Shown here in pieces: positions 11,493 through 40,174 of a stretch of 64,000 bases of DNA (positions within the stretch are counted from its first letter, which is position 1; each line of letters starts with the position of its first letter). The notes under the pieces were generated by a model. That model saw nothing but the letters and a program-made list of their open reading frames with translations. It made no database searches and had not been told where the DNA came from. A program made the position numbers and the translations under genes. The stretch comes from Squalus acanthias (lineage: Eukaryota), in contig CM059432.1 of the NCBI GenBank assembly GCA_030390025.1, forward strand, positions 6,448,001 through 6,512,000, in the 5' to 3' direction.

Positions 11493-11773
11493 GTTTGTAA
11501 GAAACAGAACATGGGCTGACAACTATCTTACTCAGCTGTTCTTTGATAGTTTTGTACGCCAATATAGATAGGTGTGTTTGTTTTGGTCAGCATTGATTAG
11601 GATCTAAAAATATGTTGCTTCGGCAGCATGATGCTGCAGTATGTTGTACTCTAAGTAAACCTATCTCCACCTGTCCTAATGTCTCCTTCTTTGGCTCAGT
11701 ATCACTACTTTAAAGGTGTTATATACTTTGTTGTTGTTGCACATTCAGTTTCTTCACAACACTAACTTTCTCA

Positions 11774-11924
11774 AAATAAAAAAAAATTGCAGATGCTGAA
11801 ACTCTGAAAACAAAGAGAAAAAGCTGGAAATACTCAGCAGGTCAGGACAGTCCTGAAGAAACGTCTTAAGGCCTGAAACGCCGACTGACCTGCTGCGTAT
11901 TTCCATCTCTTTCTATTTTTGTTT
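11774..11924. mobile_element. Fold-back Penelope-derived mini-element with central degenerate hammerhead and 14-bp TSD
   Basis: Arms ggaaatactcagcaggtcag / ctgacctgctgcgtatttcc. Centre cagtc-CTGAAGA...GAAACGCC-gactg (11848-11887). Direct repeats cactaactttctca (11760-11773) and cacttactttctca (11925-11938). Confidence 0.75.
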
Positions 11925-13098
11925 CACTTACTTTCTCACCTAAGTTGTATCCTCTTGTGGAAAGATGCTGGCTGAAACCCAGATACTTTTGATTGGTTGG
12001 AGAGAAGAGCTGTCCTTGGATCCTCAGAGTGGTATTGACAGTAAGTCAGCAGACACCCTCTCAACTGCAGATGGTGTATAGCCCAGGAAACATAGGTCTT
12101 GGAGTTTGTTGTGGGATTTCTCTCTGCCCCAAAGCAGATGGAGACGAGCGTGTACTGGTTCCAAGCGATCTTTATTCAAGCACCTGCAGGGAGAGGCCCT
12201 CTCAGTCTGAGCTGAGACGGGAGTCTAATTTTTAGAGCAGTTGGCTTATATGCAATCTTGCATCTTGTTTCTTTCACATCTTCAGGACTTGGCCAATTAA
12301 TTGTCCAAGTCTAGTACACTTAATCACATCTCCACAAAACACATCTTGTTTATCTCATTTGCCTTGTTTCCACATCTGCCATTGTTCTACTCTTTAGCTC
12401 TTATCCAATTTCGTACACTTAACCACATCTTCGCAAATCACATTGGCGGCCCATTGTTCAATGTATGGCCTCCTTGCCTTCTTTCACTCCCCCAATGATC
12501 GTGTAATATGCTTTTTCCAACTATCTTTGTTCTGCCCGACTTCTCCTTTATTACATCAGCCAGCTAGTCAGTTAAGCCGCTAATCTAACTTTTAACCCCT
12601 TCAGAGTTCATGCATTTTTCAACCGCTAAAATTATGCGATGAACATTTATGTTTGTATTTACTGTAAGACCGTCTGCACCTTTTGAGACGAGCTCTTCCA
12701 AAATAGATTTCTCATCATTTTTCGTGCTGGAAAGCTAACTTTTTGTGCCACTGTGCTTCCTTCACTAATCAAATAGTTGCAGCTTGAGCAGAAGCTGTAG
12801 GGTGGAGAGGAAGAGAGTGGCGGGAAAGGAATGTATTGGCCAGTGTGCTCACTAAGCAATTTGCAGCCAACAATCAGTCAAAGGTCACTGTAAACCAGCA
12901 GCAGAATTATATGAATTTTTTGCACAATATTTATTTTTTGATGGAATGTAATCCAATCCTAAAAGTATTCGTTGTAAACATGAATGACGGTTTGTTGGAG
13001 ATAACGGGTAGACATATCTCTGGACAGGAATATTAATAATTTGTTGTCATCCTAAACAAGTGACCATGTGTTTATTATAAAAATGAAGATGGAAATAA

Positions 13099-13840
13099 AG
13101 GCGTAGAGTTTCCTCTTTGGGCGCAATCGGCGATTCTTGCGCAAATTGCGCCCGTTTTGAAAATTGTTTTATTTCCCCCCCCCGAGTTTCTGCTCAAACT
13201 CATTTGCATATCGGCGAATGCAAAATCTGCCAAGAAGCAGCCCAAACTGGCAGCGTTTCAAAATATAATTTAAAAAAAAAGTTTGCTTTACAATATTCCT
13301 TGATATATTTAACAGTGGTAACTTGGTAAAGTTTGATTAATACAGCTGAAAATGGTTTTATCATTAAAAACTAAGCATTTTAAATCAGTGTCAATCCACC
13401 ATCTGTGAGTAGCCCAATTTTAAATGACTTGAAAATGGCTTTTAAAAAATATACAGCACTATTTTCAAGTTGGATTGAGGTACAGTATAGTCAGTTCCTT
13501 CGTAAATTAAAAAAAAAAAAATTCATTCAAAACCTTTCAAGACATAGCTATTGGTGTCCTTGTGCGCAAAAGATCCAGCTTAAGTTTTGGAGCCTCCTCA
13601 AAGGCCCGCAAACGAGCACAATTAGTGGAAACGCCAGTGGTGATTAATTCACTCTGGGGGGCGTGGGCGGGGAATGCTTCTAGTGCGATGTTTTTAAAAC
13701 TAGCGCAAAAGATCGCCGAAACTCGAGTTACGCTGAACGCAATTCGCGCTTAAAATTTCGCGATCTTTTGTGCTTGTTGTGCCGAAATCGGGCGAATTGC
13801 AGCGAAAAAACCAGCGCATTCGAGAGGAAACTCCAGACCT
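13099..13840. mobile_element. Non-autonomous TIR element, family D
   Basis: TIRs AGGCGTAGAGTTTCCTCT / AGAGGAAACTCCAGACCT; a truncated relative lies at 38384-38790. Confidence 0.7.
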
Positions 13841-14042
13841 AAGTATATCCTCTGTTGAGATAATTAGAACATTACTATTGAAATACAATTTATGAAACTG
13901 TATGGTTAGCTTGGAATATCCATCGAAAGTATGAATTATACAAAAGATTAACTAATTCCCAAGAATGCTTCACGTGGTTCCTTTGACAGCTGTAGGTTTA
14001 TATTTTTGAAGCACGAATGCCTCTGTTTTAAAAAAAAAAACC

Positions 14043-14320
14043 GAAAGACTTGCATTTATATAGCACCTTTCATGATCTCCAGGTGTCTCGAAGCACTTTA
14101 CAGCCAATAAAGTGTAGTCAGCACTGTAATGTAGGAAATGCGGCAACCAAAATTGCACACAGCAAGCTGCCGTAAACAGCAATGAGATAAATGACCAGAT
14201 GATCTGTTTTTAGTGATGCGGGTTAAGGTTTAAATATTGGTCAGGACATCGGGGAGAACTCCCCTGCTCTTCAAAATAGTGCCCATGGGATCTTTTACAT
14301 CCACCCGAGAGGGCAGATGT
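14043..14320 (-). mobile_element. SacSINE1/DeuSINE-like SINE, 3' half
   Basis: Matches the tail and central domain of the full copies at 45412 and 47412. Confidence 0.8.
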
Positions 14321-14774
14321 GCAAAGATAGTATTCTATTTTTGCCACTCCTCCTCTTCTGAAGACATTGTCTCCTGTTGGGGTGCAGTTGCATGGGAGTT
14401 AGTTACCCTTGTACTTTGCAGAAGTGGTCAGTGTCAGTGTGAGAGCCTAGATAGTGAGTGTTGGCAGGGTATTTGACTTTGGTGACATCACTGCCAATGC
14501 CTATCTTGTTCTCATCCGATATATGTACACTTTCTGGAGGTGGGAGGGGGGGGGTGGCGGATAGTGGTCAGAAGCAGGAAGCCTGGATCCGCCCCCCCCC
14601 CCCGGCTGCCAACACCCCCCCCCTCCTCTCTCTAGCCCACATGCCTCTGCTGCTCAGCACTGGTTGAGAATTTCTGGCCTGAATGGCCCATTTGCACTTC
14701 TACCAACTGGTGGTTTTTCTTCATGGTAAAGAGTGAAAATAAGGACATTTGAAAATTTTCAGAATTATAGAGAA

Positions 14775-15062
14775 GCAGGATATTGGAAATCGGAAATAAA
14801 AACAGAAAATGCTGGAAATACTCAGCCGGTCAGGCAGCATCTGTGGAGAGAGAGAAACAGAGTTGACGTTTCAGGTCGATGACCCTTCATCAGAACTGAA
14901 AAAGTTAGAGATTTAACTGATTTTAAGCAAGTGCAGAGGCAAGGAAAGTGGGGTGGGGAGGATTGAACAAAAGGGAGGAAGGTCTGTGATGGGGTGGAAG
15001 GCAGGAGAGATTAAATGACAAAAGGTATGATAGTACAAAGCAAAAGTAGATAGTAATGGGAC
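14775..15062 (-). mobile_element. Penelope-like terminal repeat fragment
   Basis: Same sequence family as 10562-10800. Confidence 0.8.
14861..14897 (-). ncRNA. Minimal hammerhead ribozyme motif with canonical GUC site
   Basis: Reverse complement agtt-CTGATGA-agggtcatcgacct-GAA-ACGT-C-aact. Confidence 0.78.
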
Positions 15063-15574
15063 CAGAATTATAGACTCCAGTTTGATCCCGATTGAAGACG
15101 AGTTGTGGCCAAAGAACTGATCCTTTTATCATTTTGGAAATAAAAGGACTGCAATTGCAGTCCAAAAAATCATGCTGTACTATTTTTAGTGGATTAATAT
15201 CCTGGGTAGTTTTTTGCTGTATTTGTGGAGTCTGAAATGATTAATGTTTGGCCTCAGGTGAGCTATTTGTCTGGAATTAATGTGCAGTAATGCAGCAAAT
15301 ATTTCATGTTTTACATATGGTAGTGATAAATAAAAGTATTATTTTCATAATATAGTCCACCTGTAATGTCGAACCTTATACATACTTAATTTCTCTGCAT
15401 TGTGTACGTTCATGTGTGCGAGTGCATGCACATATCTCTAGTGAGTTTATGTTAATGAACTGTCTGTGAACACTGATGACAGCTTTGTAATTTAAATATT
15501 TCAACGGTTCTAACCTAGATTTCTTCAGCCACTATTTACAGAGTGAATCCTATTCGTAACCTGGGCTTTTTTTT

Positions 15575-16085
15575 ATGATCTCCATATTACAAAAAGGATA
15601 TAGAGACACAGGCTTTAAAGGATGATGCCAGAACGAAGAGGTTTATAACTATCAGGAAAGATTGAACAGGCTGGGGCTCTTTTCTCTAGAACAGGGAAGG
15701 CTGAGGGGTGACCGAATAGAGGTCTTTAAAATTATGAAGTGGTTTGATAGGGTAGACGTAGAGAAGAAGTTTCCACTTGTGGGGGAGTCCAAAACTAAAA
15801 TGTAAGATGGTCACTAATAAATCCAATAGGGAATTCAGAAGAAACTTCTTTATCCAGAGAGTGGTTAGAATGTGGAACTCACTACCACACAGAGCAGTTG
15901 AGGGGAATAGCATAGATGCGTTTAAGGGGTAGCTGGATAAGTACATGAAGGAGAAAGGAATAGAAGGTTACGCTGATAGGGTGAGATGAAGAAGGGTGGG
16001 AGGAGGCTCGTGTGGAGCATAAACACTGGCACAGACCAGTCGGGCTAAATGGCCTGTTTCTGTGCTGTAAATTCTATGTAATTTT
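15575..16085 (+). mobile_element. CR1 LINE 3' fragment
   Basis: RNFFIQRVVRMWNSLP-type coding remnant and CR1 tail GGCCTGTTTCTGTGCTGTAAATTCTATG. Confidence 0.88.
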
Positions 16086-16552
16086 ATGTCAATACCAATA
16101 TGAATAATTTCTGTGGAACTACTTGGTTCCATTTTTGGCATCTCTGAATACACAGAACTTTATAAATGAAAGCTGTTACCCTACTCACTTGCCCGCAAAA
16201 ATGTTTCCTTAGCAGCCAAAGCGGCAACCAATGAACTAAAAAATCACAGCAGGTCACCGAAGATGAGCGAGCAAATTCAATCAAAACAATTCATGTAATA
16301 AACATCACAGTGTTGCCAAGGAGCAGTGTGTAAATGAGAAAAGAGGAGGGGAGCCGAGCAATGTTCCCTCTAATTTTTTTTTGTACTGAACGGGCCACGA
16401 ACTCCTTTGAGTGTGACCTTTTTGTCCGTGGGCAAATTTTACTACTACTACAACAACAACGGCAGCAACCACTTAAATGCATGTATACAGTCATGCCATA
16501 TTGCCACCCCACTGTCTCATGATTTGAGACGATCAGACAAGGTTCGATACAA

Positions 16553-16725
16553 AAAGAAAATGCTGGAAATACTCAGCAGGTCAGGCAGCATCTGTGGAGA
16601 GAAACAGAGTTAACTTTTCAGGTCGATGACCCTTCGTCTCCACAGATGCTGCCTGACTTAGTATTTCCAGCACTTTTTGTTTTTATTTCAGATTTCCAGC
16701 ATCTGCAGTGTTTTGCTTTTGTATT
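16553..16725. mobile_element. Fold-back Penelope-derived mini-element with perfect 14-bp TSD
   Basis: Arms at about 16553-16600 and 16637-16685 are inverted; a truncated hammerhead lies in the loop; aaggttcgatacaa at 16539-16552 and 16726-16739. Confidence 0.8.
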
Positions 16726-16739
16726 AAGGTTCGATACAA

Positions 16740-17010
16740 GTTTAACATAACTTCTCTGCTTTTGAATTCCATTCCTCTAGAAATGAACCACAGTGCTTTA
16801 TTTGCACTTTTATGGCTTTTTAAACCTGCATTGCTACTTTTAATGATTTGTGAATCTATACCCCTAGATCCCTTTGCACCTCTACTCCATTTAGACTCTT
16901 ATTTTCCAAGGAGTAGGTAGCCTTCTTATTCATCTTACCAAAATGCACCACCTCACACTTATCTATATTGAAATTCATTTGTCATTTACATGCCCATTCT
17001 GCAAGTTTGT
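16740..17010 (-). mobile_element. Old CR1 LINE fragment
   Basis: Reverse complement resembles the CR1 ORF2 segment KCEVVHFG...FISRGMEFKSREVML. Confidence 0.75.
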
Positions 17011-17764
17011 TTACGGTAGAATTAATTAAAAGCTTTTGCAAACATGTACAAACTCGATTAAAAAAAAAAAAAAAATTACTTGTCAGAAATGACTGGGATA
17101 TAAAAGAACTGCATCATAATGATGCATTAACACTTCAGAAATGCCACTCAGTTACACGGTTGTGTATCGACAAACAATCCAAAGCCCAAGGCGAGCTGAA
17201 AGAGGCATATCTATTCGTGCAATTTGTATTAATTTTAAAGTTTTCAACGTATTAGCCCATCCCTCCTGTCACTATAGCAATGGCTGCACAAGCAGCAGGA
17301 GCAGCAGCTTTCCTATGGCGCTAATGTGCTGTACGTCCACATAAGTAATTAGAATATTAATCACAATGCAACCAGACAACCAGCAAATATAAAGTGCTGT
17401 AGCTCTGTAGTTCACAGTATTAAAAAGAATTGAACAAAAACAAGTATTTTCAACTTCAATCACTTCCATTAATAAACGTTGTCTCCTTGAACCAGCGCAC
17501 CCCCCATGTAACATGTCAGAAATGCAGCACTTATTCACAAGTGCAGAAAAACACATACACAATTTGCGTCACCGAATTAAAAACAAAAAGCAGGAAAAGG
17601 CTATGATTTAGCAGAAATAAACATTCATCTTTCTTCCTAGATAGAAGAACCAATCAGACTGACTTGGAAATGTTTACTTGGATGGTGACGTAAAGATGTT
17701 AATTTATGAATTTCGCTTCTAATTTGCTCTCAGACATTCTCTACAATATTAATCCCTGCTCTTA

Positions 17765-18082
17765 AGAGTAAGGAAGTCTTACTACGATTGTACAGGGCTT
17801 TGGTGAGACCACATCTCAAGTACTGTGCACAGTTTTGGCCTCCTTATCTGAGGAAGAACATACTTGCCTTGGAGGTGGTGCAACAAAGGTTCACTAGATT
17901 GATCCCTGGGATGAAAGGGTTGTCCTATGATGAGAGATTGTGTAGATTGGGCCTATACTCTCCGGAGTTTAGAAGAATGAGAGGTGATCTCATTTAACAT
18001 AAGATTCTGAGGGGGATTGACAGGGTAGATGCTGAGAGGTTGTTTTCCCTGGCTGGAGAGTCTAGAACTAGGGGGCATAGTA
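17765..18082 (+). mobile_element. CR1 LINE, first part (continues at 20480 after a nested insertion)
   Basis: ORF YRALVRPHLKYCAQFWPPY...RRMRGDLI; breaks at ESRTRGHS. Confidence 0.9.
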
Positions 18083-20479
18083 CATAAGAACATAAGAAAT
18101 AGGAGCAGGAGTAGGCCAATCGGCCCCTCGAGCCTGTTCCGCCATTCAATAAGATCATGGCTGATCTGATCCTAACCTCAAATCTAAAGAACACAAGAAG
18201 TAGGAGCAGGACCCGGCCACTCAGCCCCTGGGCCCGCTCCGCCACCCACAGGGCCTTGACCGATCCGAACTCCGCCTCATGTCCAATTTCCTGCCCGCTC
18301 CCCGTAACCCCTAATTCCCTTTACTTCTAGGAAACTGTCTATTTCTGTTTTAAATTTATTTAATGATGTAGCTTCCTGGGGCAGCAAATTCCACAGACCT
18401 ACTACCCTCTGAGTGAAGAAATTTCTCCTCATCTCAGTTTTGAAAGAGCAGCCCCTTATTCTAAGATTATGCCCCCTAGTTCTAGTTTCACCCATCCTTG
18501 GGAACATCCTTACCGCATCCACCCGATCAAGCCCCTTCACAATCTTATATGTTTCAATAAGATCGCCTCTCATTCTTCTGAACTCCAATGAGTAGAGTCC
18601 CAATCTACTCAACCTCTCCTCATATGTCCACCCCCTCATCCCCGAGATTAACCGAGTGAACCTTCTTTGTACTACCTCGAGAGCAAGTATGTCTTTTCTT
18701 AAGTATAGACACCAAAACTGTATGCAGTATTCCAGGTGCGGTCTTACCAATACCTTATATAACTGCAGCAATACCTCCCTGTTTTTATAATCTATCCCCC
18801 TAGCAATAAAAGCCAACATTCCGTTGGCCTTCTTGATCACCTGCTGCACCTGCATACTAACTTTTTGATTTTCTTGCACTAGGACCCCCAGATCCCTTTG
18901 TACTGCAGTACTTTCCAGTTTCTCGCCATTAAGATAATAACTTGCTCTCTGATTTTTCCTGCCAAAGTGCATAACCTCACATTTTCCAATATTGTATTGC
19001 ATCTGCCAAATCTCCGCCCACTCACCCAGCCTGTCTATATCCCCTTGTAGGTTTTTTATGTCGTCCTCACTTTCTACTTTCCCTCCCATCTTTGTATCAT
19101 CTGCAAACTTTGATATGTTACACTCGGTCCCCTCCTCCAAATCGTTAATATAGATTGTAAAGAGTTGGGGACCCAGCACCGACCCCTGCGGAACACCACT
19201 GGTTGCCAGTCCGAGAATTAACCATTTATCCCAACTCTCTGCTTCCTGTTAGATAACCAATCCTCCACCCATGCCAGAATATTACCCCAATCCAGTGATT
19301 TTTTATCTTGAGCAATAATCTTTTATGTGGCACCTTGTCGAATGCCTTCTGGAAGTCTAAATACACTACGTCCACTGGTTCCCCTTTATCCACCCTGTTA
19401 TGTCCTCAAAGAACTCAAGCAAATTTGTCAGACATGACTTCCCCTTCATAAAGCCATGCTGACTTTGTCCTATTAAATTATGTTTATCTAAATGTTCCGT
19501 TACTGTCTCCTTAATAATAGACTCCAAAATTTTACCCACCACAGATGTTAGGCTAACTGGTCTATAATTTCCAGCCTTCTGCCTACTACCCTTTTTTAAA
19601 TGAGGGTGTTACATTAGCAGTTTTCCAATCTGCCGGGACCTTTGCTGAGTCCAGGGAATTTTGGAAAATTATTACCAAAGCATCCACAATCCCTACTGCC
19701 ACTTCCCTCAAGACCCTAGGATGTAAGCCATCAGGTCAGGGGATTTATCCGCCTTGAGTCCCATTATTTTACTGAGTACCAATTCCTTAGTGATTTTAAT
19801 CGTATTTAGCTCCTCCCCCCCCCCAGAGCCCCCTGGTTGTCCAGTGTTGGGATATTCTTAGTGTCCTCTACCATAAAGATTGAAACAAAATATTTGTTCA
19901 GCATTTTTGCCATCTCCATGTTTCCCACCATTAATTTCCCAGTCTCATCCTCTAAGGGACCTACGTTTGCCTTAACCACCCTTTTTCTTTTTATATAACT
20001 AGAAACTCTTGCTATCTGTTTTTATATTTTTTGCTAATTTATTTTCATAATCTATTTTCCCTTTCTTAATCAATCCTTGAGTTACTTTTTGCTGTCTTTT
20101 GAAGACGTCCCAATCTTCTATCCTCCCACTAAGTTTGGCTACCTTATACGTCCTTGTTTTCAGTCGGATACTATCCTTAATTTCTTTACTTAGCCACGGA
20201 TGGCTGTCATTTCTTTTCCACCCTTTTTTCCTCAGTGGAATATATTTTTTTTGAAAGTTTTAAAATAACTCCTTAAATGAACACCACTGCTCATGTACCG
20301 TCTTACCCTTTAATCTATTTTCCCAGTCCACTTTAATCAATTCCGCTCTCATACCATCAGTCTCCTTTATTCAAGCTCAGTACGCTTGTTTGAGAACCAA
20401 CCTTCTCACCCTCTAATTGGATATGGAATTCAACCATGTTATGGTCACTCATTCCAAGGGGATCCTTAACTAGGACATT
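18083..20479 (-). mobile_element. CR1 LINE, about 2.4 kb, antisense, nested with 6-bp TSD ATAGTA
   Basis: 300-aa ORF 19179-18277 with LGPQLFTIYINDL...KFADDTK RT motifs; ATAGTA at 18077-18082 and 20480-20485; (CTTATGTT)n tail. Confidence 0.95.
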
Positions 20480-22440: not shown

Positions 22441-22579
22441 CTTGAAATCAGTCGAATTTCACTCGCTATGGCAGGCTTCTTTGCTAGACCTCGCCGGCTG
22501 GCAGACTGGCCATGCGTCCCTTTGTCCTTTTCTTGCATTGTTCCCAGCTGAAGGGAGAGCCGTCCTAATGACTTCTTTG

Positions 22580-22888
22580 CCGTTCAGTGATTCGCCAGTC
22601 TGCCTATAGTCCGTTCAGTAATTCGCCAGTCTGCCTATAGCCCGTTCAGTGATTCGCTGGTCTGCCTATAGCCCGTTCAGTGATTCGCCAGTCTGCCTAT
22701 AGTCCGTTCAGTGATTCGCCGGTCTGCCAAAAGCCCGTTCAGTGATTCGCTGGTCTGCCTATAGCCCGTTCAGTGATTCGCCAGTCTGCCTATAGCCCGT
22801 TCAGTGATTCGCCGGTCTGCCAAAAGCCCGTTCAGTGATTCGCCAGTCTGCCTATAGTCCGTTCAGTGATTCGCCAGTCTGCCTATAA
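22580..22888. repeat. Minisatellite, 10 x 31 bp (CGTTCAGTGATTCGCCAGTCTGCCTATAGYC)
   Basis: Unit starts at 22581, 22612, 22643, 22674, 22705, 22736, 22767, 22798, 22829 and 22860; no spacers. Confidence 0.97.
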
Positions 22889-23662
22889 GTTAAACCCTGC
22901 TGTCTATCCTTTGCCCTTTGGGGTACAGGCTTAAGGAAAAGATCCCCTGCTCCGCTCAAAACGAAGACGGGCCATTCTGGTTTAATGCACCTGGAATCAG
23001 ACAATTGATCCTCATTATCTGAGTTTGAGATAAACTGTGAGCCACAACATTCCACACACTGGTACATCTGGCTTTAATACGCATCAATAATACCTGACCC
23101 TACCAAATAAACCCTTATCTAGGAAGATTCAGCCGTTGTTATTTTCTTAAGCACATTTTGTTTTCAAAACACAACAATTAAACATAACTCATTCGCAGAT
23201 CTTTTCTGTGACGACCAAAAAAAAATTATTGAAAAATCCCGTAACATGTTGAGGCCAAAAACCTGGGGCTGGATTTTAAATGTTACCAGTATTCTGGTGC
23301 TGTCACTTAGTTACATCTTTGATGGATGGACCATAGAATCATACAGCACAGAAGAAGGCCATTCGGCCCATCCTGCCTGTGCCAGCTCTTTGTACGAGAT
23401 AACATTGGAAAAGACCATTGGTGCAGTATAGAAAACCGTTTAGAAATAATTTTCCAGTAATGCTGAACAAATAATTTGTTTTCAAAAAAAATGAAAAAAT
23501 GCAAGTTTTAATGTAGAAAGGTAGACTTTTTAAATAAATCTTGGAGAACAAGAGGTGAAAGTGGAGCAAAAAAAGCTCCCTAATCTAGCAACAGGAAGGA
23601 TAGAAAGTTGACTACAAAACAGAAATCCGAGTTCTGAAGAAAGGTCATCGACCTAAAACATT

Positions 23663-24336
23663 GGGCCGTATTTTCTGATCTGGAAAAAAATTACGCACTT
23701 AGCTGAGGGCTCCTGGGACGCGCACACTTCCGATCCTGGGCCTCTCGAACTCCAAGTGTGCAGGGCCTACGTATCCCAGGGGCGCATGCGGTTCGCAAGC
23801 GTCCCTGGGATCACGTGGGCCATGGGGAGCCAATCAAAGAAGGGAATCTTTCTTCATACACTTGACCGAAAGACCTGTCAAATATATGAATGGAGATCAC
23901 CCCAAAAACATAGTAAAACTTTAAATAAATTTAAAAAAAAAAATCACATTTTTAAAATGCCTTGAAATTACAATAAATTAAATATTTTAAACAAAACTTT
24001 AATTTTTTGAAAAAAAAGTAAAGCTTTTTACGGGGCTAAAAATAAACTTACCTTTTAAAAAAAAAAAGTATTTTTAAATGATAAATCAGTGAAATTTTTT
24101 TTGGTTTTTACCAGACGTAAGAATTGTTAGGGTTTTCTGCGGGCGGAGGGTCTCCAAAAAGCGGAACTCTTCACCCGCAGAGGCCCTTCTCCAGGGCAGG
24201 TGGAGGATCTGTCAAGAGCATTCTTGACCGATCGGAAATGCCGGTTTTCAGCGCATGCGCTTGGCATGCCTGAAACCGGCATTTCCAATGTCCTTACGGG
24301 TGGGTACATACCCGTAGGGATCGGAATATCTGGGCC
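23663..24336. mobile_element. Harbinger-like MITE, family B, ATT TSD, inserted into a Penelope hammerhead
   Basis: TIRs GGGCCGTATTTTCTGATC / GATCGGAATATCTGGGCC; ATT at 23660-23662 and 24337-24339; Penelope sequence on both sides (23629-23662 and 24337-24445). Confidence 0.8.
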
Positions 24337-25348
24337 ATTAATTCTGTTTCCCTCTCCACAGATGTTATCTGACCTGCTGAGTGTTACCAGCATTTTCTGG
24401 TTTTTTTCAGATTTACGGCATCTGCATTATATTGCTTTTGTATTTAAAATCAATCTTTGCTCAACAACTCAGAAAACACTTTATATTATGTGCGTCAATT
24501 TTTTTGAATAAAATAAAGCTGTATTAATATACTACCACGTAAATGAAGGCACTCTAATAAATGTGACTGAGTTGATTGAATCAGTTCAGAAAGCATTAGG
24601 TAATTTCCCCCTCCTTTTTTGTTTGCATGATGGTGCATGACTTGTTGGTGCAGTTTCAATGTCGGAGACTGAAATGCCAGGATGCAGGCATAACATAACG
24701 ATTAGAAATGGATGCTTCAAAATCTACTTGGCTGTTTGATAAAATGATCTTCGTGAAAACACAAAAAAAAAGTTTGATGTTGGCTGTTGTATTTGATATA
24801 CACGTAAGGTAGATAATTGAAGCGGTTACTTGTAGAAGTCAGGAAGTGCTGGGACATTCCGCACAGATCTTCTGTTCAGTTAAGAGGCAGAGAAACCTTT
24901 TTGGTGCCAAGCCACTTTTTAGGTTTTGTTCGCGGAGCTGTGGAGAGATTATCAAATGATAAGGCAGAAACTATTTAAATCGTTTTGTGGAACTTGCCAC
25001 TTAAGTCATCAAATTCTGTGAAAAGATTTAAGAATTTAATTCTGTACAGTAGAAGCCTCTGCCAATTCTTTCTTTTGCTTCCTGTTAATGCAGCACATCA
25101 ATTGTATATTGCCCTGTATGTAAATGGTCAAACATTCAAATTGCCAGTGTAAAGGTGACACATCTACCTTGCTAAATGCAGTGTGTAGTAATGTATTATA
25201 TGCAATGTGTTAAAAGTACATTTTTTTAATGCACTACTGAAGACAAAAAATGGAGTACTATTTTTGTCATTTCAGCAGTCCAAATAGTGTGTGTTTATAA
25301 AAAAAAAGTCAAAAGTATACAGAACACTACTATATCCATAGTAAATCG

Positions 25349-29826: not shown

Positions 29827-29861
29827 GTAAGTAATTGACCCAAACTTTTTCGTTAAAGTAA

Positions 29862-31540: not shown

Positions 31541-33653
31541 GTGGGTGGGCATTTTATAACTTGCATACATTTCTATATCATTTTAAATGTGCTATTATGT
31601 GTGCTAATAGGGATTTTATTTTCATCAAGCTAGATTCTTATCTGATTTAAAGATGTTTTGGAGAAATTTCAAGGGAGTTCAGTATTTCATTTTTCTTGAG
31701 TTTTGTGGCAGCCAGAAGCTGTTCACTGAAAGATACAGAAAATTAAACAGATGTTCTGCCCGATTTATAAATGAATTTGCTGACTATCCTGAGCCACTTG
31801 GTGTTGTGTTATGGAGAATCCAGTTTGCAACTTCTCTGCATCAGGGAAGTTATATTTTTCCTTCTTCCTGCAGTGCCCTTTGACTCAATGTGACTAACTT
31901 CGCCATCAGTAGTTATATCGTGCAAATAATTCAGTGCAGAGCAGTGCAAAATACTGAGGCCATTTTTGGAAGGAGGGATCTTGGGGAATCTGTTTGCTAT
32001 TCAGTTAAACGTCTCCGGCAGGAAATTGAAGGTTTGGCTCTAAATTTAACTAGGTATAGCTGGATATTAAATAACAACATGCCATTGACTTTTATTCATA
32101 GATCTGCGAACAGACTACAAAACCATTGTCTTTTTCAAAGTGCTGTTGACTTAACTTAATATTTAGATAGCTCAAGTTTTCTGATGGCAAAACCACATTC
32201 ATACTGAGGGTAGATGGACAGGATGATCACTGAAATGTACTCCCCCAGCCCACCCTCCTTGTGTATCCCACAGCAGATTTGGTTGATCAGTTGCTTTCAG
32301 TAGAAGCACTGGCTTGAAGAGCTTAGGAGATTTTACACCAAGTTTAAAAAAAAAAAATAAACATGAATGAAATCTGCTAAAAATTTGATCCTTTCTTCCA
32401 CTATTAATGACCTGAATCAGTTCTGACTGAGTGAAACTTGCCAAAAGAGATGGCTTCAGACCAGAACAATTGGTAACCAGTTTGATTGGGCAGGTAGGCA
32501 TCGCCACTGAATTTCCAGTGCCTTGTCCTTCTACCTAGTTTGTTTCTCGCTCCAAGTTTTGCTGGTTATACTTCAGGCACAGTAAAATGAAAGATTAAGC
32601 CTCAAAGCCAAAAAAAAAGCACTTTCACTAATTTAAATAAAAAAAATTCTTTTATTTTTGTTTTACAGTGGGGTCAGGACCAGTGCAACTGGTCTTGTTT
32701 AGGGTTGGGAGGAGAGAAGGAGGCACTTTGGATGCTGGAGGCCCTGCATATTTTTGTGTCCCCTGGTTCATGAGATCGTTTGAACTATAAATGGAGTCGT
32801 TTTATAAACCAGCAAGTGATAATCTCGTGGCTCCAGTTCTCAGCATAAGCAGTACATTATTGAACCTGAAATAAGCAAACACAGTTTGCTGGTGGAGAGC
32901 TTCCCTTAAGGATTGGCTCGTCTGAAGTCCGGGAACACTCTTCAATTAATGCTTATTCTGTGATGTTAGAAATTGATAAAATGTGAGACATGAGCCATTG
33001 ACAATACTCCCTCTCATAATCTTCCCAGTCTGACAGTAATATTTGCTTTTAATATGTTTGTCTAACCTTGTTGGGGTGGGGGAGGAGGTAAGTCGGGGCT
33101 CTTTGGTGATCAAGCAAGGTGTTTGCAAAGAGGTGTGGGTGGCAATGAAAGTTCGGAACTAAGCCAGTTCTTTTGGGAAGACTAAATAATCTTATACCTG
33201 AACCAAGCAGGTTCAAAAAAGGTCAGGGCGCAGTTGATGATTGACCAGCCAGCCTGGTTCACTAATGGAATCAGAGGAGTAGATCGGTTGCTGGCGGCTG
33301 AGATTCTAATCATTCTGTTCCAGATAATCCTGTAAACCAACACCCTAATGGTTCGGGTGGTTTATGCTAGGCTAGCAGTAGGGCGCTTGCCAGTACTTTG
33401 TGCTGGTCGGGTGCATGGTTTTAACTGGTAGAACTCCCATCAGTACAGATGCGCACACTTGGGCATGTCTGAGCCTTAACTCTGCCATCCCGCACCCAAG
33501 ATCTTTGGTCTTTAGTAATTGAGGTTTGCCCCAGGGTGGGTGGTGGGGGTTGGGGGTGGGGGGCGGGGTGGCGAGTGTATGCGAGTATTGGGGAAAAAGG
33601 AAACTCTACCTGGGTAAATTTTTCAGCTGCTTTTTTTTGATTTCTAAAGAACA

Positions 33654-34320
33654 TGGGCCAGATCTTGCTGGAACGGGGCATCTCGCAGTGTACGCCGTTA
33701 GTTCGACTATTTCCTGCACCCTTCAGCTCAAAAATTTTTTGTGCCCTGACATGCTGGAAGTGCAAGCTGATAACGGCATGGTCAGGGCATCTGGGACCTC
33801 AGTGAACGATGGGACCAACAGTCCATCTCCTTAACCAATGAGAGTTAAGGATTGAGAAATAAATAGAGGAATGACTGAGAAGGAGAGTGAATTAGAGTCA
33901 AATCGGTTACAAAAAGAGAAATAGAGAGGGAAAGAAAATTAAAAAAAAAAATCAAAATTTGATCTTTTTAAAATCTCCAGCAACAATTCACTACCTGAAG
34001 GAACGAGACTTTATGGTTTAAATTATTCACTTTCTGGGCCAGGAGGTTGATCGGCAGTCATTAACAATTATCACATCGTTAAAAAGGTACTTGCGCTATT
34101 GATTACTAGCCCTAACTTTCTGTGGCAAGTTTAATGGGCAATTAATGTGTAAATCCAGCACGTTCTTAAAAATAATGGGGAGGCTCAGGAAGAGATTTGT
34201 GCAAAGCTAATGGCGGAGCGGCCCAAATCGTCCAGCAACTTGTGGCAATTCACGAGATATCTCTTCCTCGCCACAAGTTGCTGGACAATTTGCACATTAA
34301 TAACAGCAACATTAACAGGT
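33654..34320. mobile_element. Family A TIR element (relative of 4459-5137)
   Basis: Begins GGGCCAGATCTTGC; shares CATCTGGGACCT, CCTTAACCAAT and the AGAGAAATAGAGAGGGAAAGAAA block. Confidence 0.6.
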
Positions 34321-34353
34321 ATCATGTGAGAAAACGAGAGGAAAAAAAAAACC

Positions 34354-34925
34354 CACCTCCGTTCAGTCCGCAAGCGTGACCCCGAGCTTCCGGTCGCCTG
34401 TCACTTTAATTCTCCCCTCCACTCCCACTCTGATCTCTCCGTCCTCGGCCTCTTACATTGTTCCAACGAAGCTCAATGTAAGCTCGAGGAACAGCACCTC
34501 GTCTTTTGATTAGGCACTTTACAGCCTTCTGGACTCAACATTGAGTTCAACAATTTCAGACTATAAATTGGCCCCTGTAGTGTTTTTTTTTCTCTCTCGT
34601 TTCCTCACGATAGCTGTTAATGTTGCTGCCATCGTCATCCACACATCATCTAGAGCCATCTTTTGTTACTTAATTTGTCCCATTACCTTTTGCCTTTTGC
34701 CTTAAACTATCATCCCTTTTGTCATTCAATCTCTCCTGCCTTCCATCCCATCACAAACCTTCCCTTTGTTCTTTCCTCCCCTCCTCCCTGCCCCTGCTTA
34801 AAGATCTTTCCTCTCTAACCTTTTCCAGTTCTGACGAAGGGTTCGACCCGAAACGTTGACTATGTTTCTCCTCTCGTCGATGCTGCCTGACCTGCTGAGT
34901 GTTTCCAGCACTTTCTGTTATTTTT
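34354..34925 (+). mobile_element. Penelope-like element 3' end (GIY-YIG C-terminus with a premature stop, plus terminal repeat)
   Basis: Translates as HLRSVRKRDPELPVACHFNSPLHSHSDLSVLGLLHCSNEAQCKLEEQHLVF*LGTLQPSGLNIEFNNFRL*. Confidence 0.85.
34827..34861 (+). ncRNA. Minimal hammerhead ribozyme motif, sense to VPS13B
   Basis: agtt-CTGACGA-agggttcgaccc-GAA-ACGT-T-gact; stem I has one G-U pair, stem II gggt/accc. Confidence 0.72.
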
Positions 34926-35229
34926 AATTATGTGTGTATAGTATTGATTTAACTTCACCTTTATTCATACATGACGCAAACTGTACTTCAGCAGCAAAAT
35001 GGCTTCTATTGGTTGGTTCAATTGAGCCTGAAAAAGGAACATTTATAATGTGGCCTTTTGGTGAATGGAGGCAAAGGTTAAAACCGTTAAAATTAAAAGC
35101 TTATTTCTTTAGGTAATTAATTAAAATGGACTCTCGCACTTGTGTACTTACTAGATACATGCACAGAAAATTATTTTTGATTGCAGTTTTAAATTAAAAC
35201 TTAACAATTGTATTACTTTTTTTTAAAAG

Positions 35230-35367
35230 GAAGCCTGTTTCTTCAGTTGTGGTGAAAGTCTGGACAGCAAAGGGTTAACATACCGCACCAATTCTCTGTT
35301 CGATTACCGAAGTCCAGAAAATAATGGTGTCCGGGCCGAGTTTATTTTGGATGCAGCCCAACACAAG
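35230..35367 (+). CDS. VPS13B: VPS13B coding exon (approx. human exon 11), 138 bp
   Basis: ttttttttaaaAG acceptor, AAG|GTCAGA donor. Encodes EACFFSCGESLDSKGLTYRTNSLFDYRSPENNGVRAEFILDAAQHK (46 codons). Confidence 0.95.
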
Positions 35368-35927
35368 GTCAGATCATTACTAAAACTAATTAGTACACTG
35401 GGAGAATGTATTTTCCCAAGGTTCTACTTTACAATATATCGTGCAATATTTTTGTAAACTTTTAAAAACAAATCTTCAGGAAAAAAATGCTTTCAATATT
35501 TGCTGCATGGAGTTGCACAATAAGTTAGGTGAAATTACTTCCCTGCATGAATCTACTGTGGAAATAGTGGAGGCAAGCAATGTAGTCACTTGGTTCTGAC
35601 TGTTAATTCAAATTTAATTTGATTTACCAGCTTGATCTAGGCTTGATGATGATGTTCCTCAGACTATAATGCTGATGGAAGAACACCAAGGATGCCGAGA
35701 GAAGTAACATACTGTTGGCTTAATTTACATTGGGTGTGCATACAGGGACAACTGATGACATCTTAAATCCCAAACCAAACCGTCAGTCGAACAGAAAATC
35801 CTTTGCTTACAATGGTTGCTAATGCCAATTAAATCAGGTAGTTCGCGTCTTGTGTAAGCATTTGGTTTGGTATTCAAGAATTTGTTCAAGATTCTTCAAG
35901 ATTTTGGGCACTGAAAGAAGGAAAAAC

Positions 35928-36345
35928 AGAAAGACCTGCTTTATATAGTGCCTTTCATGACTTCAGGACGTCCCAGACAATGATGTACCTTCTGAAGTGT
36001 AGTCACTGTTGTAATGTAGGAAATGCGGCAGCCAATTTGCTCCCACAAACTGCAATGTGATAATGAGCAGATAATCTGTCGATTGAGGGATAAATATTGG
36101 CCAGGACACCGGGGATAGTTCCCCTGCTCCTCTTCGAAATAGTGTCATGGGATTTTTTGCGTCCACCTGAGAGCAGACGGGGCCTCAGTTTAACGTCTCA
36201 TCCGAAAGACGGCACCTCCGACAGTGCAGCAGGCTCCCTCAGTATTGCACAGGGAGTGTCAGCCTAGATTTTTGTGCTCAAGTCCCTGGAGTGGGACTTG
36301 AACCCACAACCTTCTGACTCAGGCGAGGGTGCTACTAACTGATGT
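35928..36345 (-). mobile_element. SacSINE1/DeuSINE-like SINE, near full length
   Basis: B box GGTTCAAGTCC on the minus strand, central domain and L2-type tail. Confidence 0.85.
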
Positions 36346-36581
36346 CAGGAGGCGTGCAGCCATGCTACAGTGTGAACATAGGGGAACATCAGTCATTAGC
36401 AATGTCACATCAACGTGCAACTTAGAGGAACAACAGCTTAGAGAAACATATGCTGGCAGTGTCAGCAGTAGCTATAGGATGACTGCGCCATACTCAAGCT
36501 GATTCTGACCTTCAAGTGAGGGACAACTCTGTGAAAGAATACGTAGGAACAGGAGTAGGCCATTCAGCCCTTTGACCCTGT

Positions 36582-36934
36582 TATGAAAGGTTTTAATAGA
36601 GTGGATACAGAGAAAATGTTTCCACTTGTGGGGAAGAGCATAACTAGAGGCCATCAATATAAGATAGTCACCAAGAAATCCAATAGGGAATTCAGAAGCT
36701 TCTTTACCCAAAGAGTGGTGAGAATGTGGAACTTGCTACCACAGGGAGTGGTTGAAGCAAAAAGTATAGATGCATTTAAGGGGCGGTTAGATAAGCATAT
36801 GAGGGAGAAGTGAATAGAGGGTTATGCTGATAGATTTAGATGAGGAAAGACAGGAGGAGGCTCGAGTGGAGCATAAACGCCGGCATGGACTGGTTGGGCC
36901 GAATGACCTGTTTCTATGCCGTATATCCTATGTT
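36582..36934 (+). mobile_element. CR1 3' fragment inserted into an antisense CR1 tail (36535-36970)
   Basis: ORF MKGFNRVDTEKMFPLVG...FFTQRVVRMWNLLP; the host tail is split with TGTT on both sides. Confidence 0.85.
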
Positions 36935-37993
36935 TCGCCATTCAGTTGGATCACGGCTGATCTGTATCAGACAGCTGGTCATACGAGGAAAAAAAAAATG
37001 GTCAGTTGTAAGTGGCTTACATTGTGTTTTAAAGACACATGGCTCTTACTTAGAAAATATACTCACATTTTCTGATAAAAACAAAAACTGTGACATAACA
37101 GATTTAAACAATTCGAAAGAAGGTCAGCCCAAGACTTTTACAGAGCTAGACTGCAAAGCTAATTTATTAGTATGGAAACGAAGAGTAGGCTTTGCTCATT
37201 ATAACTTTTTATATCTACTACACACTGCGTATATAATGCATTTACTGAGGATGGAGGGGGAGTTACTGGTACATGTGCGATTTATACTCTTCTATGAAAC
37301 GCAGAATACATCCCAGCAATATTATTCCTGAACGCATATCATAGACTCATACAGCACAGAAGGAGGCCATTCGGCCCATTGCGCCTGTGCACTTTCCTCC
37401 CCTAAGTTTGCACCATTTCACCTGCAGGTTACCTTAGGGTGTTGTAATATGTTAATCTTTGGATTCATGAGAGCTCCAGGGAATTCTGTATCCTTGGCCA
37501 ATCTTTATTAAGATTTCCGCTTGTACACAGTGGGACTGAAGAGCCACTACTATTACAGTAGTAATTATACTACTGAGGTGCCAGAAGTACCTTTATTACT
37601 TTAGAATAATACCGTAACATGCATTTAAAAAAAAACATCAAAAATATATATTTTTTTAAATTTGCTTCTGCTCAGCCTAACACACTCTTTTTCCTCTATT
37701 GTGTCTACAATTTCTAGTTCATAGAATAGAGGGTCATAGAATCTTATAGCACAGAAAGAGGCCATTTGACCTGCCATGTCTTTGAAAGAGCTATCCAATT
37801 AACCCCACTCCCCTGCTCTTTCCCCATAGCCCTGCACACTTTTACTTTTTAAGTATTTATCCAATTCCTTTTTGAAAGTTACTATTGACAGCCTCAGCTG
37901 ATTTTTTTTTTTCCCCCCCCCCTCTTTTCCCTAATTCGGGCTAATTCCAGCCCATACTGCAATCAGCCAACTTCGCACAGACCAGGAGTTGAA

Positions 37994-38103
37994 ATAAAAA
38001 CCGAAAATGCTGGAAATACTAAGCAGGTCAGGCAGCATCTGTACGAGAGAGAGCGAGAGAGAGAGAGAAACAGAGTTAACGTTTCAGGTCGATGACCCTT
38101 CAT
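37994..38103 (-). mobile_element. Penelope-derived mini-insertion ending in the hammerhead core, 11-bp TSD
   Basis: caggagttgaa at 37983-37993 and 38104-38114; reverse complement contains CTGATGA-agggtcatcgacct-GAAACGTT-aact. Confidence 0.78.
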
Positions 38104-38383
38104 CAGGAGTTGAAGGTTGATTAAGACCAATCCCAGCGGAAAGTTACCTTGATTTCCACAATCTTTTTCTCATCATCTTCACAAACTTAACCATTTAGTC
38201 CCGGTGACATTTCAGGACATCGTTCAGCTGTTTCTGAAATATATCGATGAGGGAGAAGTTCAGTATAGAACATTCCGGCCCAACCCAACCCAATCAGGCA
38301 AAGAGATCCATAGGATTATAAAACAATTTTTGTGCTCAGAAGTTCAAGTGCTGGGGATTGGAACGATCTAATTTGGACACGGT

Positions 38384-38790
38384 GAGGTAGAGTTTCTGCT
38401 TTGGGAGCAATCGGTGATCTGGTTGCGTCCAAGATGGCGCCCGTTTTGAGAAGTGTGTTTTTCCCCCTCAAGTTTCTGCTCAAACTCACTTGCATATCAC
38501 CGAACACAAAACATCTGCCATGAACCAGCGCAATCGGGTGGCGTTTAAGAATGCATTTTAATAAAAATGCTTCAAAAAATATTCCTTGATATATTTAAGA
38601 GTGTTAACTTGGTGCAGTTTGATTAATACAGCTGAAAATGGGTTGATCACAAAAAAAATAAGCATTTTTATTCAGAGTGTCCAGTCCACCACCTGTGAGT
38701 AACCCGATTCTAAATAACTGAAAATGACTTTAAAAAGCTATACAGAACCATTTGCGAGTTATATTGGTGTACAATAGTCAGTTACTTTTA
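38384..38790. mobile_element. Family D TIR element, truncated
   Basis: AGGTAGAGTTTCTGCTTTGGGAGCAATCGG start, colinear with 13099-13500. Confidence 0.7.
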
Positions 38791-38811
38791 TAAAGTATTA
38801 CCAAGTATTTC

Positions 38812-39215
38812 CAGCATGGAGACAGGCCATTCGGCCCAACAGGTCTATGCCGGTGTTTATGCTCCACACCAGCCTCCTCCCACCCTCCTTCTTCTAACCC
38901 CATCAACATAACCTTCTATTCCTTTCTCCCTCTTGTGTTAATCTAGCTTTCCCTTATGCTATTCGCCTCAACTGTTCCTTGTGGTCTCGAGTTCCACATT
39001 CTCGCCGCTCTCTGGGTAAAGAAGTTTCTTCTGAATTCCCTATTGTGTTTATTAGTGACTATCTTACATTTATGGCCCCTAGTTCTGAACTTCCCCATTA
39101 GTGGAAATAGCTTCTCTAAGTCTACCCTATCAGACCCTTTCATAATCTTAAAGACCTCTGTTAGATCACCCTTCAGCCTTCTCTTTGCTGGAGAAAAGAG
39201 CCCCAGCCTGTTTAA
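38812..39215 (-). mobile_element. CR1 3' fragment
   Basis: Minus ORF LNRLGLFSPAKRRLKGDL...RRNFFTQRAARMWNS plus tail. Confidence 0.88.
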
Positions 39216-39568
39216 TCCTGTTTTTATATTCACTATTTGAATTGTTTTAAAAAATGCTATTTCTTTCTTATTATCACAATTGAAACTTTTTTGTTTTATT
39301 CTTTCACTGATCTACCGTTTATTCTGGAGCTGGGACTGTATCTGTCACTGGAACTGTGCCCATGTTTCCATTGTTGTGGATACTGGCCACGATCCTTTGA
39401 ACAAAAGCCTGAAATCTGGGTACTTTAGCTGGATACGAAATGCAGGAATGCGGGTAAAATAATTGTACATTCTGTTCCAGCATATAGATGCAGCGTTAGC
39501 AATATTTTAGTCTCAAAAGAGTCCTCTTCTCGTGTTAACTGATGAAGGAAAACTGATGCATCTGGCAC

Positions 39569-39791
39569 AAAGCAAAATACTGCAGATGTTGGAAATCTGA
39601 AATGATAACAAGAAATGCTGGAAACACGCAGCAGGTCCGGCAGCATCTGTGGAGAGAGGGTTAACATGTTGGGTTCGATGACCTCCCGTCAGAATTGGGC
39701 GCACGGTCATCTACCTGAAACGTTAACCCTACTTTCCTCTCTCCGCAGATGCTGCCCGACCTGCTGAGTGCTTCAGCAATTTCTGTTTTAA
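39569..39791. mobile_element. Fold-back Penelope-derived mini-element with two opposed hammerhead remnants, about 15-bp TSD
   Basis: Inverted arms gcagcaggtccggcagcatctgtggagagagg / cctctctccgcagatgctgcccgacctgctgag. Flanks tgatgcatctggcac (39554-39568) and tgacgcatctgccac (39792-39806). Confidence 0.75.
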
Positions 39792-40174
39792 TGACGCATC
39801 TGCCACGTGAATATGCGAGGTACCACTGCAGATGCGGAGGCAGGAAATTTGGTATCTTGAATTTTTCTGGGAAGACCACAAAATGCACAATAAACCTCTT
39901 TTATTTTAAAAGTTAACATAGCAGGGAGCTTGACATATACACCAAATGTTCATTTTTTTTATTGCAGTGTACATTGCTTTCACTGCACAGCATTATACCT
40001 GCAGTTCTGATTATTTATATCTGATGTGTCCAAATATCTGGATTTTATGGTAAATCGTTAAATACCCTATCCAGTCACCCTAAAATGAATCCAGACTGAA
40101 CGCTGAAGTTTCAGTTCGAGAATGACTTAAGAATTGAAAACATACGACATTTTTTCCTTTTTAAATAAGCATTC

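What the first reader, a model, noticed from the sequence alone, without database searches (positions are those of the whole stretch)
11760..39806. Tiny hammerhead-bearing, mostly fold-back mini-elements with their own 11-15 bp target-site duplications
Seen: four insertions of 110-220 bp consist only of Penelope terminal-repeat sequence, each bounded by a direct repeat: 11774-11924 (14 bp, 13/14 match), 16553-16725 (14 bp perfect), 37994-38103 (11 bp perfect) and 39569-39791 (15 bp, 13/15). Three of them, plus 51627-51830, are inverted repeats that turn around in or next to the hammerhead. Inference: these are either a non-autonomous hairpin retroelement family mobilised by Penelope RT, or a stereotyped product of very short Penelope insertions with inversion at the ribozyme. 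Inverted terminal-repeat segments are known for Penelope insertions, and the differing junctions favour repeated de novo formation. The long clean TSDs and clustering of breakpoints at the ribozyme are the unusual part.
Basis: partly seen in the sequence, partly recalled or inferred. Interest (0 to 1): 0.75.

Follow-up and report, generated by a model that had tools for sequence, protein, structure and literature searches.

The report
Tiny back-to-back Penelope retroelement insertions
These are very short, old leftovers of a common Penelope-like jumping gene in a shark-type genome, mostly two copies of its last 70-135 bases joined head to head between a short duplicated target, likely made anew each time when the element's enzyme copied its RNA from both cut DNA ends, and not a separate hairpin element family.

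Summary
Real but ordinary. The four flanking direct repeats are at the stated places (13/14, 14/14, 11/11, 13/15; matched by 0-5 of 1500 random spacings). Two ordinary linear Penelope copies in the window have them too (11 and 12 bp). Four of the five elements are head-to-head pairs of the element's 3' end, and in 4 of 4 exactly one arm carries the ~35-nt tail. That is the published 'inverted pLTR with one-sided tail' layout, shrunk by extreme 5' truncation. All four junctions differ, arms are only 81-86% alike, and none of the five keeps an intact hammerhead, so a propagating ribozyme hairpin family is unlikely. Breakpoints do not cluster at the cleavage site (1 of 12 arm ends within 3 nt). 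They cluster 27-35 nt upstream, at the hammerhead's 5' edge (6 of 12). Contigs of three species show the same two 3' ends and varied head-to-head joints; one joint at about 100-fold depth is unexplained. Best mechanism (inferred): twin priming at the two reverse-transcription start sites, then end-joining. The scan noted such hairpins before on other DNA of this genome (e1-7790103, e1-9860681). Empty sites were not tested.

The parts
11760..11773 (+). e1 left target-site duplication (13/14 match to 11925-11938)
11774..11845 (-). e1 short-headed arm: element 3' end with tail, 5' end at about +3 from this subfamily's cleavage site
11848..11924 (+). e1 long-headed arm, no tail. Variant hammerhead of a second subfamily: core 11853-11859, predicted cut after 11882, triplet reads GCC rather than GUH, 5-bp helix I. 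2 extra letters at 11846-11847
11925..11938 (+). e1 right target-site duplication
16539..16552 (+). e2 left target-site duplication (14/14)
16553..16638 (-). e2 long-headed arm, -27 to about +60, no tail; hammerhead core cut off at its 5' end
16637..16725 (+). e2 short-headed arm, +12 to about +105, with tail; 2-nt overlap with the other arm
16726..16739 (+). e2 right target-site duplication
37983..37993 (+). e3 left target-site duplication (11/11)
37994..38103 (-). e3 single linear arm, about -29 to +65, no tail, expanded GA run. Core intact but the 5' strand of helix I is lost. 3-4 letters of the duplication match the element at each end
38104..38114 (+). e3 right target-site duplication
39554..39568 (+). 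e4 left target-site duplication (13/15)
39569..39698 (-). e4 long-headed arm, -35 to +100, with tail; hammerhead core mutated
39699..39704 (.). e4 6-nt linker at the junction, matching neither arm's continuation
39705..39791 (+). e4 short-headed arm, -20 to about +65, no tail
39792..39806 (+). e4 right target-site duplication
51628..51717 (-). e5 long-headed arm, -35 to about +55, no tail; core intact, helix I only 2 bp, helix II not formed
51716..51830 (+). e5 short-headed arm, -20 to +101, with tail; 2-nt overlap; no target-site duplication found
14772..15062 (-). comparison copy c14: linear 5'-truncated copy, intact minimal hammerhead (cut between 14865 and 14864), 12/12 duplication at 14760-14771 and 15063-15074
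10561..11040 (-). comparison copy c10: linear copy with endonuclease remnant, intact hammerhead, no tail, 11/11 duplication at 10548-10558 and 11043-11053
34354..34925 (+). comparison copy c34: GIY-YIG-type C-terminus (34354-34566), 3' UTR and hammerhead; fixes the sense strand
52941..53179 (+). comparison copy c53: linear copy with intact hammerhead and full tail; reference for numbering

Best explanation
These are independent, extremely 5'-truncated insertions of an abundant endonuclease-bearing Penelope-like element; four of the five are two copies of its 3' end joined head to head, likely made by twin priming, in which both nicked target strands would prime reverse transcription and the two short cDNAs would then be joined. 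Step 1 (inferred from the duplications): the GIY-YIG endonuclease makes staggered nicks 11-15 bp apart. Step 2 (ends shown, cause inferred): one DNA end primes at the outer start site (about +100 from the hammerhead cut, giving the tail) and the other at the inner one (about +65, no tail), likely on one RNA. Step 3 (positions shown, cause inferred): synthesis stops early, often at the 5' edge of the hammerhead (-27 to -35), not at the cleavage site, so uncleaved RNA is the likely template. Step 4 (inferred): the two cDNA ends join through 0-3 nt of microhomology or a few added bases, and fill-in yields the duplication. If only one strand is primed, a linear stub such as e3 results. The copies then decay; their hammerheads are predicted inactive. 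Confidence in 'de novo Penelope products, not a family' is about 0.9; in twin priming as the route, about 0.55-0.6.
For: Both outer ends of each fold-back lie at one of the family's two 3' ends, and 4 of 4 have exactly one tail (chance 0.05-0.06). The tail sits on the short-headed arm in 3 (e1, e2, e5) and the long-headed arm in 1 (e4). In the 3, a simple snap-back copy of the first cDNA cannot supply a tail that the cDNA lacks. The same two 3' ends head the listed loose ends in contigs of three species (tail-continuing at 14784 = 766/832/622; no tail at 14793-4 = 598+599/569+569/487+448). All 4 junctions differ. 7 of the 15 listed joints are head-to-head, at 7 coordinate pairs (two of them one junction shifted by 1 nt), each in 1-5 contigs. 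Linear copies share the duplications. In vitro, the anole Poseidon protein cleaves and extends both strands, starts at two adjacent internal sites that define the tail, is predicted dimeric and does not need hammerhead cleavage (PMC11167929). L1 twin priming is described with microcomplementary joining and internal duplications (10.1101/2024.08.27.596794, passages).
Against: Only four fold-backs, so one-tail-per-event is suggestive only. The arms overlap by 45-85 nt, which needs strand displacement or two RNAs (not shown). 196 of 211 joints were not displayed, so recurrence of these exact junctions elsewhere is not excluded. One joint (14834/14896) lies on a contig at depth 815.7 against about 7 for unique flank, so at least one fold-back junction has been amplified. 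Both arms of e4 share one letter found in no other aligned copy, which fits one RNA but also arm-copying. Junction microhomology is only slightly above background (mean 1.3 nt in 7 joints against 0.70). e5 has no duplication. No empty site was checked for e1-e5.
Confidence: 0.57

Rival explanations
1. Fold-back self-priming. A cDNA or an antisense RNA snaps back on itself near the hammerhead and is copied into a hairpin, which the endonuclease then resolves with a staggered cut, leaving a tail at one end. Still de novo, still ordinary Penelope biology.
For: PMC3846280 proposes self-priming on an antisense template for head-to-head junctions (passages). PMC8557442 attributes the one-sided tail to endonuclease resolution (passages). 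The spacers between heads are short (15-62 nt) and often span the hammerhead, whose helices bring the ends close. e1's junction is within 5 letters of a helix-I snap-back. Lead e1-9860681.
Against: Snap-back of a target-primed cDNA predicts the tail on the long-headed arm; 3 of 4 are the reverse. No exact helix-I junction among the 7 listed head-to-head joints. No antisense RNA was shown.
Confidence: 0.27
2. A non-autonomous hairpin family (retrozyme- or SINE-like) copied from one or a few fold-back masters by Penelope reverse transcriptase.
For: e4 and e5 have nearly the same heads (-35/-20). One junction elsewhere lies at about 100-fold single-copy depth in organism A and also in a probable RNA run; another is in 5 contigs. 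Non-LTR retrozymes are described as non-autonomous Penelope derivatives (10.64898/2026.07.22.740005, abstract and passages).
Against: e4 and e5 carry the tail on opposite arms and e4 has a 6-nt linker; e1 is a different subfamily; arms are no closer across elements than to linear copies. Hammerheads are broken. None of the four window junctions is among the 7 listed head-to-head joints (196 rows unseen). Retrozymes are head-to-tail tandem arrays, not inverted pairs.
Confidence: 0.07
3. Long head-to-head insertions that were later trimmed at their centre, because long palindromes are unstable, leaving short arms and the original duplication.
For: Explains intact duplications, varied asymmetric centres and short microhomologies. 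Long inverted pLTR structures are common in the family (PMC2377424, PMC8557442 passages). Palindrome instability is recalled, not from a call.
Against: Linear copies with no palindrome (e3 at -29, c23 at -33) stop at the same place as the long arms. 6 of 12 arm ends fall in one 9-nt window (p 5e-5 to 4e-3 against uniform nulls).
Confidence: 0.07

Closest known systems
Canonical endonuclease-positive Penelope-like insertions with an inverted pLTR and one-sided tail (Adineta Pen2a/Pen2, PMC3846280; scheme in PMC8557442 Fig. 2 legend; D. virilis Penelope, PMC2377424)
   Same: 5'-truncated inverted copy joined head to head; 30-40-nt tail at one end only; target-site duplication present in some copies and absent in others; hammerhead in the terminal repeat.
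   Different: Both arms are cut down to 70-135 nt, so no ORF lies between them. Duplications are 11-15 bp against 8-10 bp in the Adineta examples read. Long-arm ends cluster at the 5' edge of the hammerhead.
Poseidon of Anolis carolinensis (PAc), PMC11167929
   Same: Two adjacent internal start sites define the tail; both target strands extended in vitro; hammerhead cleavage not needed, and no reads end at the cut site, matching the lack of genomic 5' ends at the cut here.
   Different: The PAc start region is AC-rich, here both ends follow U-rich runs. PAc's ORF starts in the hammerhead; here the frame could not be tested (GA run varies). Clade not determined.
Minimal hammerheads of metazoan Penelope elements (PMC4209133)
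   Same: Type I minimal motif, extra nucleotide before helix II, palindromic 15.2-16.2, short helix I. That paper already notes pairs on opposite strands 100-700 bp apart and widespread single motifs from truncated elements.
   Different: In these five copies the motif is truncated or mutated; position 10.1-11.1 is not always G-C.
L1 twin priming (10.1101/2024.08.27.596794, passages)
   Same: Works like it: two cDNAs primed from both nicks, inverted 5' segment, microcomplementary join, target-site duplication.
   Different: No poly(A); the second priming site is fixed, about 35 nt from the first, so the arms overlap almost wholly and form a hairpin.
Metazoan non-LTR retrozymes (PMC7229834; 10.64898/2026.07.22.740005)
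   Same: Small, non-coding, hammerhead-related, Penelope-derived; duplications longer than 4 bp when present.
   Different: Retrozymes are head-to-tail tandem repeats with complete hammerheads and circular RNAs; these are single inverted pairs with broken hammerheads.

Membership tests
Endonuclease-positive Penelope-like element (fragments) | Continuity with a C-terminal GIY-YIG endonuclease ORF | tested here: met
   34354-34566 translates to an endonuclease-type C-terminus; 2 of 8 candidates hit, at 78% and 67%, skate proteins whose adjoining part scores GIY-YIG weakly (E 0.008 and 0.0013, below Pfam's cut-off). The 51-aa piece alone gave no Pfam hit.
Endonuclease-positive Penelope-like element (fragments) | Telomerase-like reverse transcriptase | not tested
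   No copy in the window reaches the RT; no genome held.
Endonuclease-positive Penelope-like element (fragments) | Minimal type I hammerhead in the terminal repeat | tested here: met
   Exact core with 4-bp helix I in 4 linear copies; the two cofolded (c10, c14) pair as dimers. Motif scan only; Rfam has no hit; cleavage untested.
Endonuclease-positive Penelope-like element (fragments) | Optional 30-40-nt tail, at one end only | tested here: met
   4 of 4 fold-backs; two 3' ends in contigs of three species.
Endonuclease-positive Penelope-like element (fragments) | Inverted 5'-truncated copy, head to head | tested here: met
   7 of 15 listed joints
Poseidon versus Neptune clade | RT phylogeny; extra Zn-finger-like linker in Neptune | not tested
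   Region absent from the window.
Non-LTR retrozyme | Head-to-tail tandem units | tested here: not met
   Single or inverted arms only.
Non-LTR retrozyme | Complete hammerhead in each unit | tested here: not met
   0 of 5 elements has an exact core with a 4-bp helix I.
Non-LTR retrozyme | Small circular or linear RNA | not testable with these tools
   Only contigs were offered; no run on record as RNA.
Propagating non-autonomous hairpin family | One junction and one pair of ends repeated at many loci | tested here: inconclusive
   Not met among the 4 window elements or the 7 listed joints, but 196 joints were unseen and one other junction is at high depth.

The most novel reading that the evidence does not exclude
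Some Penelope fold-backs become masters: a hairpin with a start site at each end is copied onward by Penelope reverse transcriptase as a non-autonomous inverted-repeat retroelement, distinct from tandem retrozymes. The junction seen at about 100-fold depth in organism A (not listed for species B or F) and in a probable RNA run would be its youngest family, and the window's elements older relics of the same route.
Probability: 0.1. Interest if true: 0.65.

Novelty: new member of a known kind. Interest (0 to 1): 0.24.

Why it matters
As a kind of element it is not new. Its use is as a natural test set: how Penelope elements make inverted terminal repeats and a one-sided tail is called unresolved in PMC8557442 and PMC11167929. 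This genome holds about one copy per 6 kb in this window (10 insertions in 64 kb, 4 of them short fold-backs), each with both ends, junction and duplication inside 250 bp. Counting tails per event and arm-to-arm private changes across the genome would separate twin priming from fold-back self-priming. The stop at the hammerhead's 5' edge hints that the folded ribozyme, a transcript start or a splice site limits cDNA length.

Tried and rejected
No whole genome is held, so the genome-wide table could not be made. Rfam at E up to 1: 3 matches, all sub-threshold miRNA models, no hammerhead. Pattern scans for the repeat: 0 matches in metagenome contigs, 0 in prokaryote genome contigs. Look-up of earlier notes by sequence gave one irrelevant hit; by words and by nearby place, none. 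Sequencing runs: no RNA holder listed; this says nothing on expression. Depth drops about ninefold upstream of -37, but c14's private changes and contig summing make it unusable. In organism F the left-flank contig stops at 14761 and a right-flank contig is laid from 15060 with 24 letters unplaced; this fits an empty c14 site but is no listed joint, and three element letters align, so it is only a hint. Rejected: breakpoints at the cleavage site (1 of 12 arm ends within 3 nt; 0 of 7 listed joints). Rejected: duplications special to mini-elements. Considered, unsupported: the -32 position reads like a 3' splice site (pyrimidines then CAG), as for the D. virilis intron end at helix I (PMC4209133), but no splice joint is among the 15 listed. 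e3 alone folds no better than shuffles (131 of 200 as good). Paper search 'Penelope' + 'twin priming' gave 3 papers on L1 or telomerase (listing only); the four-term search gave 9. [quoted passage not shown]
Full report
Observation. A search for the best direct repeat within 6 nt of each boundary gave 13/14 (e1, 11774-11924), 14/14 (e2, 16553-16725), 11/11 (e3, 37994-38103) and 13/15 (e4, 39569-39791); 2, 0, 2 and 5 of 1500 random position pairs scored as well. e5 (51627-51830) has none. The boundaries agree within a few letters with independent alignment ends. Of five other copies tested in the same call, two linear ones also have perfect duplications (c14, 12 bp; c10, 11 bp) and three have none (c34, c53, c23/24). 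So the duplications are real and normal for the family.

Identity and strand. Self-comparison finds the repeat at 11 places, which are 10 insertions because 23630-23662 and 24338-24444 are one copy split by another element. Copy c34 continues upstream into a frame ending like a Penelope GIY-YIG endonuclease. That piece matches two skate proteins at 78% and 67% (2 of 8 candidates), whose adjoining part scores GIY-YIG weakly, below Pfam's cut-off; the 51-aa piece alone gave no Pfam hit. This fixes the sense strand: ORF end, pyrimidine-rich 3' UTR, hammerhead, then about 65 or 100 more bases. The reverse transcriptase and the clade were not tested, since no genome is held.

Hammerhead. Rfam reports none. 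An exact-core scan finds 8 motifs in the window, 6 of them in this repeat. The four with a 4-bp helix I are the linear copies c10, c14, c34 and c53; c10 and c14 cofold as dimers through the palindromic helix III, e5's does not. This matches the minimal hammerheads described in PMC4209133 (results and discussion read), including the extra base before helix II.

Anatomy. Numbered from the predicted cut: e1 arms run -35 to about +65 and +3 to +100 (its own subfamily numbering); e2 -27 to about +60 and +12 to about +105; e4 -35 to +100 and -20 to about +65; e5 -35 to about +55 and -20 to +101; e3 is one arm, -29 to +65. All four pairs are head to head. In 4 of 4 exactly one arm carries the 35-nt tail, which independent draws would give with probability 0.05-0.06. 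The tail is on the short-headed arm in three and on the long-headed arm in one. Junctions show a 2-nt overlap (e2, e5), 2 extra letters (e1) or a 6-nt linker (e4). Over up to 49 shared columns the two arms of an element are 86% (e2), 81% (e4) and 85% (e5) alike, no closer than arms from different loci (72-95%), so these are old insertions.

Breakpoints. Of 12 arm 5' ends within 200 nt of the cut (c10 and c34 begin much further upstream and were left out), 1 lies within 3 nt of it and 6 lie between -27 and -35; a 9-nt window this full arises with p 5e-5 to 4e-3 under uniform nulls of three widths. The nulls are crude and positions were read by hand to within a few letters. Two of the six are linear copies (e3, c23), so the stop is not a feature of inversion.

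Other loci and species. Runs holding the region came from several related organisms. I laid contigs of four runs (organisms A, B, F and a probable RNA run of A) on c14 at 80% likeness; 46,000-51,000 contigs per large run were laid. Of 24 loose-end rows shown (1293 unseen), the largest mark the same two 3' ends in all three species. Of 15 joints shown (196 unseen), 7 change strand, all head to head, with long heads at -32, -34, -15, -14, -33, -24, -32 and short heads at +12 to +31; c14's own changes near -35 may pull ends towards -34. Each is in 1-5 contigs. None equals a window junction, and none is at the cut. Shared letters at these joints average 1.3 against 0.70 at random. Against my reading: the joint 14834/14896 is on a contig of depth 815.7 where unique flank is about 7, and appears in the probable RNA run; it is not listed for B or F. 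Whether this is a dispersed family, a tandem array or cargo of another repeat cannot be told.

Mechanism. The best fit is twin priming. PMC11167929 (abstract, main text and part of the methods read) shows that a Poseidon protein cleaves and extends both target strands, starts at two adjacent internal RNA sites whose interval is the tail, is predicted dimeric, and does not need hammerhead cleavage. If each nicked strand takes one site, the product has one tail, two outer ends at start sites, a variable head-to-head joint and a target duplication, as seen. The same logic is described for L1 (10.1101/2024.08.27.596794, passages). Ends, junctions and duplications are shown; nicking, use of one RNA, displacement and joining are inferred. 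The main rival is self-priming into a hairpin followed by endonuclease resolution, as proposed in PMC3846280 and PMC8557442 (passages). A propagating family and later trimming of long palindromes are less likely.

Comparison and novelty. An inverted 5'-truncated copy, a 30-40-bp tail at only one end and target duplications of 8-10 bp are described for Penelope insertions (PMC3846280, PMC8557442, PMC2377424, PMC8969392; passages). PMC4209133 notes paired minimal hammerheads on opposite strands 100-700 bp apart. These elements are the shortest form of that layout. They fail two defining tests for non-LTR retrozymes (PMC7229834 passages; 10.64898/2026.07.22.740005 first part and passages). PMC12910113 passages added nothing. 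Searches listed no paper applying twin priming to Penelope elements, but key subscription reviews are not held and no supplements were opened. The scan has noted such hairpins before on other pieces of this genome.

Verdict. Real, old, ordinary Penelope insertion products; new member of a known kind; interest 0.24. The one-tail-per-event pattern and the stop at the hammerhead's 5' edge are worth a genome-wide count, and the one amplified junction keeps a 10% chance of a hairpin family open.

Noticed in passing
window 23663-24337: An insertion of about 675 bp with imperfect inverted ends splits one Penelope copy exactly at the hammerhead cleavage triplet, with an apparent 3-bp duplication of that triplet; it looks like the Harbinger-type hot spot of note e1-7805368.
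   Followed up: partly
window 34304-34352: Copy c34 has a 49-bp inverted piece at its 5' end taken from its 3' UTR (34582-34628), far from the hammerhead and from the two usual 3' ends; no duplication found.
   Followed up: partly
joints 14834/14896 and 14839/14898: One head-to-head junction at about 100-fold single-copy depth in organism A; both joints show depth 76.8 in the probable RNA run, perhaps one contig with two inversions.
   Followed up: no
window 11848-11887: e1 belongs to a second subfamily with a different helix I and II and no GA-run segment after the cut; a similar variant appears among the letters between joints.
   Followed up: partly
window 14896-14910 (- strand) and equivalents in c10, c34, c53: The sequence just upstream of helix I reads like a 3' splice site (pyrimidine run, then AG); in D. 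virilis the intron ends at helix I. No splice joint was listed.
   Followed up: partly
window 14760-15074: Contig layout in organism F fits an empty site for c14, but this is not shown by a listed joint.
   Followed up: partly
window 23615-23625: Ten letters just upstream of c23's 5' end match the reverse of the element's inner 3' end; possibly a vestigial second arm, or chance in A-rich sequence.
   Followed up: no
window 22518-22945: 31-bp tandem repeat.
   Followed up: no
window 34224-34292: 69-bp imperfect palindrome next to c34.
   Followed up: no
window 1337-2194, 18277-19248, 60089-61224 and others: Long frames that read like CR1/L2-type LINE reverse transcriptase C-termini (label from recall, not searched).
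   Followed up: no
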